DNA of 19,849 nt from positions 1 to 19,849 of IMG/VR virus record IMGVR_UViG_2778261575_000007. The stretch is one strand, 5' to 3'. This document shows positions 6,001 through 9,000 of the stretch, piece by piece. Made by a program: the position numbers. This stretch comes from a virus. Taxonomy: Duplodnaviria > Heunggongvirae > Uroviricota > Caudoviricetes. Position 1 is the first letter of the stretch; each line of letters starts with the position of its first letter.

Positions 6001-9000
6001 ACGTTACGCCAGGCAATATCACCTACCGCCGTGATTTTACGCTGGTGGACCATTATAAAGCCGTAAATCAAAAACGTGCAGCAAGCTATATCCGCAAAAT
6101 CCGTGAAATGCTGGTTGCAGGGGGGAAAAAATGAAACTGGCACCGAACGTAAAAAAACAGCCACGCGGAATAAAACACAAAGACACAGAGGTAATTATTT
6201 TCGCGGGTAGTGATGCCTGGGCACACGCGAAACAATGGCAGGAGCACGATGCGCGTATGGCTGGAGATAATGAGCCACCTGTTGTGCTGGCTGATGAACA
6301 ACTGAAAGAGATCGGAAATCTGCAAATAGTGCCTGATGGGCGCACATCCGCGCGCATATTCAGAGCCGGACAGTTAGATCCTGTAATGGTTAAGGCAATT
6401 GGTCAGAAGCTGGCGGCGGCAAGTATACAGAATGCGAATTATTACCCTGATGGCATGCACAGCCAGAAGTGTGAGAACTGGCGTGAATACCTTGCCCGTG
6501 AGCGTAAAAACATTGATGACGGACTGATTATCCGGTTTCCGGCAAAGAAAAAAACAGAAGACAGCGCGACACCACTGGCACTTAACCAGATGGGAGCAAG
6601 CCAGCGCGGCGAAGTTCTCCTGGCACATTATGGCGGTGAACTGGCAATCAATGCGGATTCTGACACCGTTCACCACTACAACGGTGTTGTATGGGAGCCG
6701 GTACAGGATAAAGAGTTACAGCGGGCTATGGCGCAGATTTTTATTGATGCGGAAATCAGCTATTCGCAGAACGCCATCAAATCGGCGGTCGATACCATGA
6801 AGTTAAGTTTGCCCGTAATGGGGAATACCGCCCGTAACCTGATTGGATTCAGTAACGGTGTTTTTGATACCCGGACAGGCGATTTTCGGGAGCACGACAA
6901 AAACGACTGGTTGTTAATTGCCAGTGAATTACCGTTCAACCCGCTAGCAGAGGGGGAAACGCTGGCAACGCATGCGCCGAATTTCTGGAAATGGTTGCGC
7001 CGTTCGGTGGCAGAGAATGAACGCAAAGCGGATCGCGTACTGGCGGCGTTATTCATGGTGCTGGCGAATCGGTACGACTGGCAGTTATTTCTTGAGGTAA
7101 CGGGGCCGGGTGGAAGCGGTAAAAGCGTAATGGCGGAGATTTGCACTATGCTGGCGGGTAAGGCCAACACGGTATCGGCAAGCATGAAGGCGCTGGAAGA
7201 TGCCAGGGAACGCGCGTTAGTGGTTGGCTTTTCGCTGATTATTATGCCGGATATGACCCGTTACGCTGGTGATGGTGCAGGAATTAAGGCCATTACAGGC
7301 GGTGATAAGGTGGCAATCGACCCGAAACATAAAGCCCCCTACTCAACACGCATTCAGGCGGTCGTGCTGGCGGTGAACAATAACGCCATGTCATTCAGTG
7401 ACCGCAGCGGTGGGATATCACGTCGTCGGGTAATATTCAATTTTTCGGAAGTTGTACCGGAGAACGAACGTGACCCTATGCTGGCTGAAAAAATAGAAGG
7501 AGAGCTGGCGGTAGTGATTCGCCACCTGCTTACACGCTTTTCTGACCAGGACGAAGCTAAACGCCTGCTATATGAGCAGCAGAAATCAGAAGAAGCCCTA
7601 GTGATAAAACGCGAGGGCGATTCGCTGGTGGACTTCTGCGGCTATCTCATGTCGTCGGTAATGTGCGATGGCCTGTTAGTGGGTAATGCTGAAATTATTC
7701 CGTTCAGCCCGCGCAGGTATCTCTATCACGCCTATCTGGCGTATATGAGGGCACACGGATTCGGTAAGCCCGTAACACTGACACGCTTCGGTAAGGATAT
7801 GCCAGGGGCAATGGCGGAATACGGCAGGGAGTATATGAAACGGAAAACGAAGCATGGCTTGCGTTCAAACGTGATACTGACAGAGGATTCAGAAGACTGG
7901 ATGCCCTCATGTGCATCGGTCACAAATGACGATGGCAAAAATTAAACTTATGGAATAACTGTTCATCACTGTTCACCCTGTAATAAATGTGTTCTATATC
8001 AGTTGGTTATAGGGTGAACAGTTATTCATGAACTGTTCATCAAACTATTCACTGTTCACCTTTTTGATTATTTGTTGAGCTTTAAGGGTGAACAGTGGTG
8101 AACAGTTGGTGAATAGTTTTTGTGAAACTGTTCACCCATTAACACAATGAATTAAAAGGAGAAAAGGAAAAGGGTGAACAGGTGAAGGGTTAAAATGCAA
8201 AAATTTTATTTTATTGCTGTGAGGTAAAGGCTGTGACAACGAAGCACACAAAAAACACAATCTCACGCCCTTGATTTGACAGAACACAGGCTGAGGGAGG
8301 CGATAAAAATCATCGACCGCAACGCCGGGGAAGGATACGCGAAAGTACATCCCGAACTGATAAGCGCATTCATGACAACGGCAGCGGCAAACTTTGCCAT
8401 GCTGACAGAACGGGAGATTGCCGAAGCTGAACAGGTGACAATCATCAACGTTAAAACCGGAGAGCAAACAGCATGACGGTACAAATATCCGCTTACGGGC
8501 GGCAGGTGGCTGATCTGCACTCAAAAACCACCAGCAAGGGAACACCAATGGCAATGGCGAGTATGGCGGTTCCCCTTCCGCGCAGCCAGGCAGATGACGG
8601 AACGGCGAAACGTGGCTGGTCTGGTTATCGCAGACAGCGTAATCAGTGCGCGAACGGTGCGGCCGGGCGGCAAAAAAGCCAGCAGAGTGATCCGTACGGT
8701 GATGGAATACCATTTGGGGATATCGTATAAATAAACCTTAGCATAGCGTTATATAAAGGTGATATATATGATTTGCTTTGTGAAGAAATTTAGTGAAATA
8801 GTGGAAAAGTCTTCTGGTGCTTTGTCTTTCGGGATTATACAGAGTCTCGTTATGATAGGTATAATTGCAAATTTATCTTCTCAAACAGGTGTAAGATATT
8901 TCATCTTGCTTACTATTGCATTTATTGCAACTATAAGTATTGCATTATGTATGTTGAGTATAATATCTGTTATTAACGAAGTGACAGGAAAACATAAGTA

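What the first reader, a model, noticed from the sequence alone, without database searches (positions are those of the whole stretch)
7959..8188. Dense TGTTCACC/GGTGAACA iteron array directly downstream of the primase gene
Seven perfect and about four degenerate copies of one octamer, in both orientations, fill a 230-bp non-coding stretch. As I recall, this octamer is the type I iteron bound by the P4 alpha protein at ori and crr. That implies the element has a self-contained replicon of P4 type even though no sid/delta/psu-like genes are visible, so it may replicate autonomously after excision.
Basis: partly seen in the sequence, partly recalled or inferred. Interest (0 to 1): 0.5.

Follow-up and report, generated by a model that had tools for sequence, protein, structure and literature searches.

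The report
Replication origin of a phage-satellite island
The repeat cluster is real and is almost certainly the replication origin of a phage-parasitic island (PICI) in pathogenic E. coli; it uses the same 8-base binding site as satellite phage P4, so it is a well-understood kind of element rather than a new one.

Summary
TGTTCACC occurs 7 times exactly in 7959-8188, against 0.63 expected in the whole window. With 5 degenerate copies it forms a 12-site array starting 14 bp after the stop codon of the 604-aa gene.

- The octamer is the annotated "ori type 1 repeat" of P4 ori and crr.
- Window 8087-8188 has the same site order, orientation and spacing as the P4 ori core.
- The protein's C-terminus matches the solved P4 alpha origin-binding domain (1KA8, E=1.6e-23).

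Three refinements:
1. The element is a Gram-negative PICI of the EcCICFT073 type, inserted at thrW. It is not a P4-like satellite: no sid, delta, psu, epsilon or cnr homologue.
2. The "primase" lacks P4's zinc-finger/primase domain. It has only a short TOPRIM-like fold without the canonical acidic residues.
3. The array is a single dyad-symmetric origin, not P4's split ori plus crr.

In 80 related loci the 12-site layout is conserved. The iteron core changes (TGTCTACC, TGTCCGCC, TCTCCACC and others) in step with one short segment of the binding domain.

Verdict: a new member of a known kind, of modest interest.

The parts
6131..7945 (+). Rep initiator-helicase (604 aa), annotated elsewhere as 'DNA primase family protein'. 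It has a P4-alpha-type D5_N domain, an SF3 helicase and a C-terminal origin-binding domain.
   Evidence: Pfam D5_N, DUF5906 and Pox_D5. 49% identity to P4 alpha residues 304-776. Walker A GPGGSGKS at aa 325-332 is invariant. The helicase also matches SaPI5 PriRep, 7OLA.
6131..6529 (+). N-terminal domain (aa 1-133): a TOPRIM-like fold without the canonical Glu and DxD residues and without a zinc finger. It replaces the primase domain of P4 alpha (aa 1-303).
7616..7906 (+). C-terminal winged-helix origin-binding domain (aa 496-592).
   Evidence: phmmer hit to PDB 1KA8, the P4 alpha origin-binding domain, E=1.6e-23.
7835..7864 (+). Segment MKRKTKHGLR (aa 569-578), the inferred wing of the winged helix and candidate specificity determinant.
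   Evidence: Its sequence and length partition perfectly with the iteron core class across 84 loci. Calling it the wing is inferred from canonical winged-helix topology; the AlphaFold2 model of this domain failed.
7960..8060 (.). Left iteron module, six sites: 7960+ (TGTTCATC), 7970+, 8013-, 8034+ (TGTTCATC), 8046+ (TATTCACT), 8053+.
   Evidence: It is the inverted copy of the right module (inverted repeats I1 and I2). Its first three sites resemble a P4 crr unit: 0+, 9+, 52-.
7978..8012 (.). AT-rich spacer of the left module, between two direct sites and an inverted site. It is a candidate melting region.
   Evidence: It carries a motif conserved in related loci, AWAACA-N4-5-GTTAAT, and a one-mismatch IHF-like match at 7997-8009.
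8061..8086 (.). Central AT-rich segment at the dyad axis of the array.
   Evidence: Lies between the arms of inverted repeats I2 (7944-7979 / 8085-8120, 81% complementary) and I7.
8087..8188 (.). Right iteron module, six sites: 8087-, 8097-, 8108- (TATTCACC), 8129+, 8173-, 8181- (CCTTCACC). Its sites lie in the same order, orientation and spacing as the P4 ori core.
   Evidence: Site offsets are 0, 10, 21, 42, 86, 94 (---+--). P4 ori 9310-9413 has 0, 10, 21, 43, 86, 96 (---+--). Alignment; blastn E=2e-5.
8137..8172 (.). AT-rich, purine-rich spacer of the right module. It is a candidate melting region.
   Evidence: The motif TTAAC-N4-5-ATGAWTT is shared with P4 ori and with most related loci whatever their iteron class.
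8189..8265 (.). Trailing AT-rich block (TTAAAATGCAAAAATTTTATTTTATTG...), conserved after the last iteron pair. It marks the right edge of the exchanged replicon cassette.
   Evidence: Conserved across iteron classes. Similarity to EcCICFT073 resumes at 8266. Two weak promoter-like matches at 8208-8261, no more than shuffles give.
6552..8266 (+). Helicase plus binding domain plus iteron array, exchanged as one cassette.
   Evidence: Window 6121-6552 and 8266-8570 are 80-84% identical in DNA to EcCICFT073. The stretch between has no blastn match apart from 83 bases (7043-7125) inside the helicase.
1..1215 (+). Tyrosine integrase of the island, P4-int type, next to thrW.
   Evidence: Pfam. 42% identity to P4 Int. 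tRNA-Thr lies just upstream in related genomes.
2287..2484 (+). AlpA/Vis-like helix-turn-helix regulator or excisionase.
   Evidence: PHROG 66 and 2790. tblastn hit to P4 Vis, E=1e-10.
15626..15646 (+). attR: a copy of the 3' end of tRNA-Thr (TCCTATTATC-GCACCA). It bounds an island of about 15.8 kb.

Best explanation
The array at 7960-8188, with its AT-rich tail to about 8265, is the origin of replication of a ~15.8-kb phage-inducible chromosomal island (PICI) inserted at thrW.

Proposed mechanism:
1. The adjacent 604-aa protein is the initiator. Its C-terminal winged-helix domain, a homologue of the P4 alpha origin-binding domain, recognises the 10-bp iteron ACTGTTCACC.
2. The twelve sites form two inverted six-site modules: three tandem sites about one helical turn apart, one opposed site, a 35-44 bp AT-rich spacer, then two more sites. 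The modules flank a central AT-rich segment.
3. Bound protomers assemble into SF3 helicase hexamers, plausibly one per module and head to head. They melt the AT-rich DNA and load themselves without a separate loader.
4. After the island is induced and excised, this gives theta-type amplification before packaging.
5. The protein lacks the P4 primase domain, so primers probably come from a host enzyme.

Shown here: the sites, their non-random clustering, the match to P4, the domain homology, conservation of the layout, co-variation of iteron and binding domain, and exchange of the module as a cassette. Inferred: binding, melting, double-hexamer assembly and the source of primers.
For: - **Clustering.** 7 exact and 5 degenerate sites lie in 230 bp, against 0.63 exact sites expected in the whole window.
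- **Match to P4.** The octamer equals the annotated P4 'ori type 1 repeat' in ori and crr. The right module has the same site order, orientation and spacing as P4 ori.
- **Binding domain.** Residues 496-592 match PDB 1KA8 at E=1.6e-23. The helicase is 49% identical to P4 alpha and also matches SaPI5 PriRep, 7OLA.
- **Conservation.** In 80 genomic loci encoding homologues, the repeats cluster in the 350 bp after the stop codon and almost nowhere else. The 12-site layout (about 0+, 10+, 53-, 74+, 85+, 93+, 126-, 137-, 148-, 169+, 213-, 221-) is kept despite about 70% DNA identity.
- **Co-variation.** Other loci keep the layout but use TGTCTACC, TGTCCGCC, TGTCCACC, TCTCCACC, TATCTACC or TATACACC. 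Each core goes with a distinct version of one 10-15-aa segment of the binding domain, with no mixed class.
- **Cassette exchange.** Helicase, binding domain and iterons are swapped together relative to EcCICFT073.
- **Experimental precedent.** EcCICFT073 has the same layout and N-terminal domain. Its rep-ori segment maintained a temperature-sensitive plasmid, and deleting rep or ori impaired maintenance (PMC6092414).
- **Mechanistic precedent.** SaPI Reps are self-loading helicases. Their winged-helix domains bind iterons placed just downstream of rep around an AT-rich centre (PMC9371898).
- **Dyad symmetry.** Inverted repeats I1 and I2.
Against: - Nothing here is a binding or replication assay, and the tested EcCICFT073 origin has a different iteron (TGTCTACC/TATCTACC).
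- P4 needs two separated cis regions (ori and crr), so sharing iterons does not prove that one array is enough.
- The protein lacks a recognisable primase, so how priming occurs is unknown.
- The related genome K56-43-un has this gene frameshifted, so some copies are decaying.
- The co-variation classes are few, and the loci within a class are related, so the perfect partition overstates the number of independent events.
- The binding-domain model failed (pLDDT 37), so the 'wing' assignment is not structurally confirmed.
Confidence: 0.88

Rival explanations
1. The array is only a crr-like enhancer in cis. The true origin lies elsewhere in the island, as in P4, where ori and crr are 4.5 kb apart.
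For: The array sits exactly where P4 has crr, just downstream of the alpha gene. Its first three sites resemble a crr unit: 0+, 9+, 52-.
Against: There is no second iteron cluster in the 19.8-kb window. The only other exact copies are singletons, one explained by the LAVNNN codons. The right half of the array matches P4 ori, not crr. In EcCICFT073 the equivalent single array plus rep gave plasmid maintenance.
Confidence: 0.05
2. The array is mainly a regulatory operator. The Rep protein, or another regulator, binds it to control read-through or transcription of the downstream operon (8276 onward), or to limit copy number by handcuffing. Origin activity would be secondary or absent.
For: The array lies between two co-directional gene blocks. 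No intrinsic terminator was found, so transcription may pass through it. Iteron arrays of plasmids often serve both initiation and control (established plasmid biology).
Against: The promoter-like matches (2) are no more than shuffles give (1.5). Two inverted modules around AT-rich DNA, next to a helicase gene, is the design of an origin. The exchange of helicase, binding domain and array as one unit fits a replicon. A regulatory role could coexist with origin function.
Confidence: 0.05
3. The repeats are a chance or compositional feature of AT-rich intergenic DNA, or hairpins of a structured RNA.
For: Weak hits to hairpin (microRNA precursor) models appear in an E-value-threshold Rfam scan.
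Against: 0 of 200 shuffles reach the observed count. All Rfam hits are far below gathering scores: 33 bits against a cut-off of 150. Site positions and orientations are conserved while the spacers diverge, and the core co-varies with a protein segment.
Confidence: 0.01

Closest known systems
Replication origin of Gram-negative PICIs (EcCICFT073 pri-rep-ori; Fillol-Salom et al. 2018, PMC6092414)
   Same: - Same gene order: Icd-like, small ORFs, DUF4222, rep, origin, small ORF, SSB-like, PerC.
- Same position of the array, directly 3' of rep.
- Same 12-site layout with AT-rich spacers.
- Same N-terminal domain, about 85% identical.
- Integrase and AlpA at the left end, with unidirectional genes.
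   Different: The helicase and binding domain are only about 50% identical. The iteron is TGTTCACC instead of TGTCTACC/TATCTACC. The EcCICFT073 right spacer is a GC-rich palindrome rather than AT-rich DNA. This island sits at thrW, carries GapS1 and has no capsid-like genes.
Satellite phage P4 ori and crr with the alpha protein
   Same: The octamer is identical. The right module has the same site order, orientation and spacing as the ori core. The helicase and origin-binding domain are homologous. The integrase and Vis/AlpA are homologous.
   Different: - P4 has two separated cis regions, ori and a duplicated 120-bp crr. Here there is one dyad-symmetric array.
- P4 alpha has a zinc-finger plus TOPRIM primase domain (aa 1-303) that is absent here.
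- There is no cnr, sid, delta, psu or epsilon homologue.
SaPI origins and Rep/PriRep self-loading helicases (PMC9371898)
   Same: An SF3-type helicase with a C-terminal winged-helix domain. Six to twelve iterons lie directly downstream of rep, with opposed iterons around AT-rich DNA. The helicase domain shows weak sequence similarity to 7OLA (E=1e-9).
   Different: SaPI iterons are 5-6 nt and unrelated in sequence. The hosts are Gram-positive. SaPIs usually encode a separate or fused functional primase.
Capsid-forming PICI-like element vB_KppS-Ant (LR881103)
   Same: It encodes the closest protein in the phage collection (74% identity). Its TGTTCACC array matches site for site.
   Different: That element carries capsid, portal and terminase genes; the window's island does not. 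Its N-terminal domain is only 34% identical.

Membership tests
P4-type replicon (alpha / ori / crr) | Iteron is the octamer TGTTCACC (the 'type 1 repeat') | tested here: met
   7 exact copies in the array. The same octamer is annotated in P4 ori and crr.
P4-type replicon (alpha / ori / crr) | Initiator has the alpha-type C-terminal winged-helix origin-binding domain | tested here: met
   1KA8 hit, E=1.6e-23, over aa 496-592.
P4-type replicon (alpha / ori / crr) | Initiator has the alpha-type SF3 helicase | tested here: met
   49% identity to alpha 304-776 and an identical Walker A block.
P4-type replicon (alpha / ori / crr) | Initiator has the N-terminal zinc-finger plus TOPRIM primase domain with the EGYATA motif | tested here: not met
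P4-type replicon (alpha / ori / crr) | Two separated cis regions, ori and crr | tested here: not met
   Only one cluster in the window. It combines an ori-like module with its inverted copy.
P4-type replicon (alpha / ori / crr) | Cnr copy-number regulator encoded upstream of alpha | tested here: not met
   No similarity between the upstream ORF and P4 ORF106, and no tblastn hit.
P4-type replicon (alpha / ori / crr) | The protein binds the iterons and the fragment fires as an origin | not testable with these tools
   Needs EMSA or footprinting and a replication assay.
P4-like satellite (whole element) | Carries sid, delta, psu and epsilon | tested here: not met
   tblastn of all P4 proteins hits only int, alpha (304-776) and vis.
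Gram-negative PICI | Integrase at one end, a specific attachment site and flanking direct repeats | tested here: met
   Integrase at 1-1215. tRNA-Thr lies upstream in related genomes. attR copy at 15626-15646.
Gram-negative PICI | An alpA-type regulator and unidirectional rightward gene order | tested here: met
   ORF 2287-2484 matches PHROG 66/2790 and P4 Vis. From int to PerC, every ORF with a family match is on the + strand.
Gram-negative PICI | Pri-rep gene followed immediately by an origin made of iteron sets around AT-rich DNA | tested here: met
   Same layout as the tested EcCICFT073 origin.
Gram-negative PICI | PICI-typical accessory genes (PerC), no phage lysis or tail genes, size about 10-16 kb | tested here: met
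   PerC at 9701-9988. No structural or lysis families found. About 15.8 kb.
Gram-negative PICI | Helper-phage induction and packaging (cos site, or Rpp/TerS-like redirection) | tested here: inconclusive
   No lambda cosN-like sequence within 2 mismatches. ORF 10626-11162 has only a weak HTH / small-terminase-like hit. Induction cannot be tested here.

The most novel reading that the evidence does not exclude
This PICI lineage and P4-like satellites share one initiator specificity: an identical iteron and the same type of putative wing segment. P4 alpha and the PICI Rep may therefore recognise each other's origins, giving cross-activation or competition between two satellite families in one cell. 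In the same reading, a 10-15-aa wing segment acts as a swappable code for iteron choice. The PICI Rep, which has lost the primase catalytic residues, would obtain primers by a route not yet described, for example its dead TOPRIM domain recruiting host DnaG. P4's split ori/crr would be a derived form of the single palindromic origin seen here.
Probability: 0.3. Interest if true: 0.55.

Novelty: new member of a known kind. Interest (0 to 1): 0.3.

Why it matters
- **The thrW island.** The 20-kb thrW "pathogenicity island" of ExPEC/APEC strains contains an apparently intact, potentially mobilisable PICI replicon. It sits next to the vat toxin gene and carries an anti-phage gene, GapS1.
- **Prevalence.** The same origin type occurs in 594 of 5,426 complete E. 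coli genomes, up to 6 places per genome.
- **A test for origin specificity.** The comparative data give a concrete, testable rule: one short protein segment changes together with the iteron core.
- **Annotation.** The common label "DNA primase" for this protein family is probably wrong for the ~600-aa forms.
- **What it does not change.** None of this alters the known picture of how satellite origins work.

Tried and rejected
- **RNA families.** An Rfam scan of 7600-8600 at E-value threshold gave only hairpin-model hits far below gathering scores, so an RNA reading was rejected.
- **Promoters and terminators.** The scan found no terminator, and promoter-like hits were at chance level.
- **Host-factor sites.** There are no DnaA boxes in the array. 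IHF consensus matches are not significantly enriched in the window (8 of 200 shuffles reach the count). One one-mismatch site lies in the left spacer, which is not enough for a claim.
- **Binding-domain model.** AlphaFold2 on aa 480-604 failed (pLDDT 37), so the wing assignment rests on sequence and canonical topology.
- **Classic P4 papers.** The Ziegelin 1993 and 1995 papers could not be read. The statement that alpha binds these iterons is from my own knowledge plus the GenBank annotation.
- **Literature search on the octamer.** A full-text search returned only unrelated primer sequences.
- **PICI paper supplements.** They hold no iteron sequences, so I cannot say whether this allele was drawn in its Figure 2a.
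- **Cnr.** No homologue lies upstream of rep.
- **Defence models.** PADLOC gave no hits. GapS1 was found only by NCBIfam.
- **Packaging site.** Lambda cosN was not found.
- **Intragenic copy at 7372.** It was considered as a thirteenth iteron and rejected. It encodes the invariant LAVNNN motif and also occurs in loci with other iterons.
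Full report
**Observation.**
The octamer TGTTCACC, or its complement, occurs 9 times in the window. Dinucleotide-preserving shuffles give 0.63 +/- 0.80, and none of 200 shuffles exceeds 3. Seven exact copies lie inside 7959-8188: 7970+, 8013-, 8053+, 8087-, 8097-, 8129+ and 8173-. One-mismatch copies lie at 7960+, 8034+ and 8108-. Two-mismatch copies at 8046+ and 8181- fall at positions that hold sites in related loci. That makes 12 sites.

The repeat finder shows that the unit is 10-12 nt, ACTGTTCACC(C). The first site begins 14 bp after the stop codon of ORF 6131-7945. The region has GC 0.32-0.40, against about 0.5 on either side.

**Direct comparison with P4.**
The P4 genome record X51522 annotates 'ori type 1 repeat' features inside its replication origin (9310-9413) and inside crr (4291-4590). 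Read directly, these are TGTTCACC/GGTGAACA. blastn links the window array to P4 ori at E=2e-5.

The match goes beyond the octamer. Window sites 8087-, 8097-, 8108-, 8129+, 8173-, 8181- have offsets 0, 10, 21, 42, 86, 94. P4 ori sites have offsets 0, 10, 21, 43, 86, 96 with the same orientations.

That the alpha protein binds these repeats is my recollection of Ziegelin et al., EMBO J 1993. That paper is not in the held library. The domain order of alpha is stated in PMC2777425: a DnaG-type primase, an SF3 helicase, then a C-terminal winged helix.

**The neighbouring protein.**
The 604-aa product has Pfam D5_N, DUF5906 and Pox_D5 domains. Residues 125-599 align with alpha residues 304-776 at 49% identity. 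Residues 496-592 match the solved P4 alpha origin-binding domain 1KA8 at E=1.6e-23.

Residues 1-124 do not align with the primase part of alpha.
- An AlphaFold2 model of residues 1-150 is confident over 1-133 (pLDDT 83).
- In the family alignment, invariant Ala25-Gly26 and Ala79-Gly80 occupy the positions where TOPRIM domains carry the catalytic Glu and DxD.
- There is no zinc-finger cysteine cluster.

I read this as a degenerate TOPRIM remnant, so the protein is probably an initiator-helicase and not a primase. Other conserved acidic residues exist (E20, D28, E38, D46), so loss of activity is likely but not proven.

Related ~600-aa proteins carry a second, unrelated short N-terminal type. The ~800-aa forms carry the full P4 primase domain.

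**What the element is.**
The window matches the thrW-adjacent island of ExPEC/APEC genomes. The gene order is:
- integrase (1-1215);
- an AlpA/Vis-like regulator (2287-2484);
- an AntA protein;
- an ORF ending in an Icd-like domain;
- several small ORFs;
- a DUF4222 protein;
- the rep gene, followed by the array;
- small ORFs including an SSB-like fragment;
- ProQ/FinO;
- PerC;
- further ORFs;
- GapS1.

A copy of the tRNA-Thr 3' end at 15626-15646 marks attR, which gives an island of about 15.8 kb. Beyond attR lie an integrase remnant, a MarR regulator and vat.

tblastn with all P4 proteins hits only int, alpha (304-776) and vis. There is no sid, delta, psu, epsilon or cnr homologue.

This is the layout of the Gram-negative PICIs described by Fillol-Salom et al. 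2018 (PMC6092414). That paper states that the origin lies immediately 3' of the replication gene and consists of two iteron sets around an AT-rich region. It also names PerC as a PICI gene.

I located the prototype EcCICFT073 in the CFT073 genome. It has the same order: Icd-like, small ORFs, DUF4222, rep, gap, small ORF, SSB, PerC. Its Pri-Rep is 50% identical overall, and about 85% identical over residues 1-140. The gap after its rep gene holds an array with the same layout built from TGTCTACC/TATCTACC. In the paper, rep plus this origin maintained a temperature-sensitive plasmid at the restrictive temperature. Deleting rep abolished maintenance, and deleting the origin reduced it.

**Comparative evidence that the array is the protein's binding target.**
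I fetched 80 genomic loci encoding homologues, mostly from Enterobacterales genera, including Xenorhabdus and Photorhabdus.
- **Clustering.** In most loci, TGTTCACC-type repeats cluster in the 350 bp after the stop codon and almost nowhere else in the 7-kb locus.
- **Conserved layout.** The site layout is about 0+, 10+, 53-, 74+, 85+, 93+, 126-, 137-, 148-, 169+, 213-, 221-. It is conserved between the window and vB_KppS-Ant although the DNA is only about 70% identical. It holds across all loci examined, including those that encode full-length alpha-type proteins.
- **Other cores, same layout.** Loci without TGTTCACC keep the layout but use another core: TGTCTACC, TGTCCGCC, TGTCCACC, TCTCCACC, TATCTACC or TATACACC.
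- **Where the proteins differ.** Some of these proteins are up to 92% identical to the window protein in the helicase, but only 66-71% identical in the last 100 residues.
- **The co-varying segment.** The difference is concentrated between the motifs EYGxxY and SN(V/I/L). A 10-aa xKRKTKxG(I/L)R version goes with TGTTCAC/TATTCAC in 64 loci, including P4. Distinct 10-, 11- or 15-aa versions go with each of the other cores, and no class is mixed.
- **The rest of the domain.** It is nearly invariant.

In a canonical winged helix this variable segment would be the beta-hairpin wing. I could not confirm that, because the AlphaFold2 model of the domain failed. The loci within a class are related, so the number of independent switches is smaller than the number of loci.

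Relative to EcCICFT073, window 6121-6552 and 8266-8570 are 80-84% identical in DNA. The stretch between them holds the helicase, the binding domain and the array, and has no blastn match apart from 83 bases (7043-7125) inside the helicase. Protein and site have therefore been exchanged as one cassette.

**Anatomy.**
The left six sites (++ spacer -+++) are the inverted copy of the right six (---+ spacer --). Inverted repeats 7944-7979 / 8085-8120 (81% complementary) and 7992-8043 / 8106-8157 (71%) show this at sequence level.

The array is therefore a large imperfect palindrome around an AT-rich centre at 8061-8086. Each arm holds a 35-44 bp AT-rich spacer flanked by opposed sites. Tandem sites are 10-11 bp apart, which places them on one face of the helix.

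The right spacer carries a motif, TTAAC-N4-5-ATGAWTT. P4 ori and most loci share it whatever their iteron class. A conserved AT-rich block follows the last pair of sites. I have no explanation for these motifs. There are no DnaA boxes, and IHF-like matches are not convincing.

**Mechanism proposed.**
1. After induction and excision, the Rep protein binds the iterons through its C-terminal domain.
2. It assembles into SF3 hexamers and melts the AT-rich DNA.
3. It loads itself without a separate loader. This is what is described for SaPI Reps, whose iterons also lie just downstream of rep around an AT-rich centre (PMC9371898).
4. The dyad symmetry suggests two hexamers loaded head to head, giving bidirectional replication. 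This is inference by analogy with other SF3 origin-binding helicases.
5. P4 alpha makes its own primers. This protein probably cannot, so a host primase is the likely source.

The EcCICFT073 experiment shows that a Rep with this N-terminal domain, plus its origin, suffices in E. coli together with host factors.

**Rival explanations.**
- **A crr-like enhancer with the true origin elsewhere.** This is unlikely. No second cluster exists in the window, and the right half matches P4 ori rather than crr.
- **A purely regulatory operator.** It cannot be excluded as an added role, but it does not explain the origin-like design or the cassette exchange.
- **Chance or an RNA structure.** Both are excluded.

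**Known versus new.**
The kind of feature is known: PICI origins 3' of pri-rep (2018) and P4 type I iterons (1980s-1990s). This allele combines the PICI layout with the P4 specificity. I found no text stating that combination, but the 2018 paper's Figure 2a is not readable here.

The array is common. It is at least 80% identical in 594 of 5,426 complete E. coli genomes, with up to 6 places per genome.

The following points come from this analysis and are modest additions, not a new category:
- the wing-to-iteron correspondence;
- the palindromic two-module design;
- the view of P4's split ori/crr as a derived form;
- the likely loss of primase function.

I rate the feature a new member of a known kind, with interest 0.3.

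Noticed in passing
window 13255-14853 (+): A GapS1-family anti-phage protein (NCBIfam NF047931, E=6e-132) is encoded inside the island, about 800 bp before attR. This is a defence cargo gene in a satellite. PADLOC 2023 has no model for it.
   Followed up: partly
window 15626-19849: The classical ~20-kb thrW 'Vat island' is composite. A bounded PICI ends at attR (15626-15646). After it come a 112-aa integrase remnant (15801-16139, 57% identical to the P4 Int N-terminus), a MarR-family regulator (16584-17108, minus strand) and vat (17234-19849, minus strand, running off the window). vat is therefore outside the mobilisable unit.
   Followed up: partly
window 8473-8730 (+): The 85-aa ORF matches the 136-aa SSB of EcCICFT073 only over its first 45 residues (67% identity). 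The island's SSB gene looks truncated or frameshifted.
   Followed up: partly
window 3355-4893 (+): This 512-aa ORF has an Icd-like cell-division-inhibitor domain as its last ~50 residues. In EcCICFT073 and K56-43-un the Icd-like gene is a short separate ORF. Here it is fused to, or overlapped by, a long upstream frame of unknown function.
   Followed up: no
L013, L016, L017, L020, L021 (N-termini of rep homologues); L015, L037: Homologous helicase/binding-domain bodies carry at least three different N-terminal modules. These are the TOPRIM-like type of the window, an unrelated ~130-aa type beginning SDALFSCxYxWVNGH, and the full P4 zinc-finger/TOPRIM primase. The junction lies near aa 140.
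   Followed up: partly
window 8137-8172 and 8189-8232; same positions in L002-L082 and P4 9361-9440: Two spacer motifs are conserved regardless of iteron class: TTAAC-N4-5-ATGAWTT in the right spacer, and TTAAA-N-GCAWAAWTTTTATTTTWT after the last iteron pair. The factor or function behind them is unknown.
   Followed up: partly
L074, L075, L079 and CFT073 (L084 4170-4205): In these loci the AT-rich right spacer is replaced by a GC-rich palindrome (for example GCCGCGCCATTACTGGCATGGTGGCCAGTAA). The melting region, if it is one, is not AT-rich in every lineage.
   Followed up: no
window 7372-7379 (-): An isolated exact TGTTCACC lies inside the rep gene, 573 bp before the stop codon. It recurs at the same place in several loci, including ones with other iterons. 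It is explained by the codons of the invariant LAVNNN motif and is not an iteron.
   Followed up: yes
window 9174-9988 (+): A ProQ/FinO-family RNA-binding protein (9174-9704) is encoded directly upstream of, and overlapping, a PerC-family activator (9701-9988). PerC homologues on PICIs are reported to activate the LEE island in some strains (PMC6092414).
   Followed up: no
L003 8727-10533 (E. coli K56-43-un): In this closely related island the rep gene is annotated as frameshifted, so some copies of the replicon are decaying although the array is kept.
   Followed up: no
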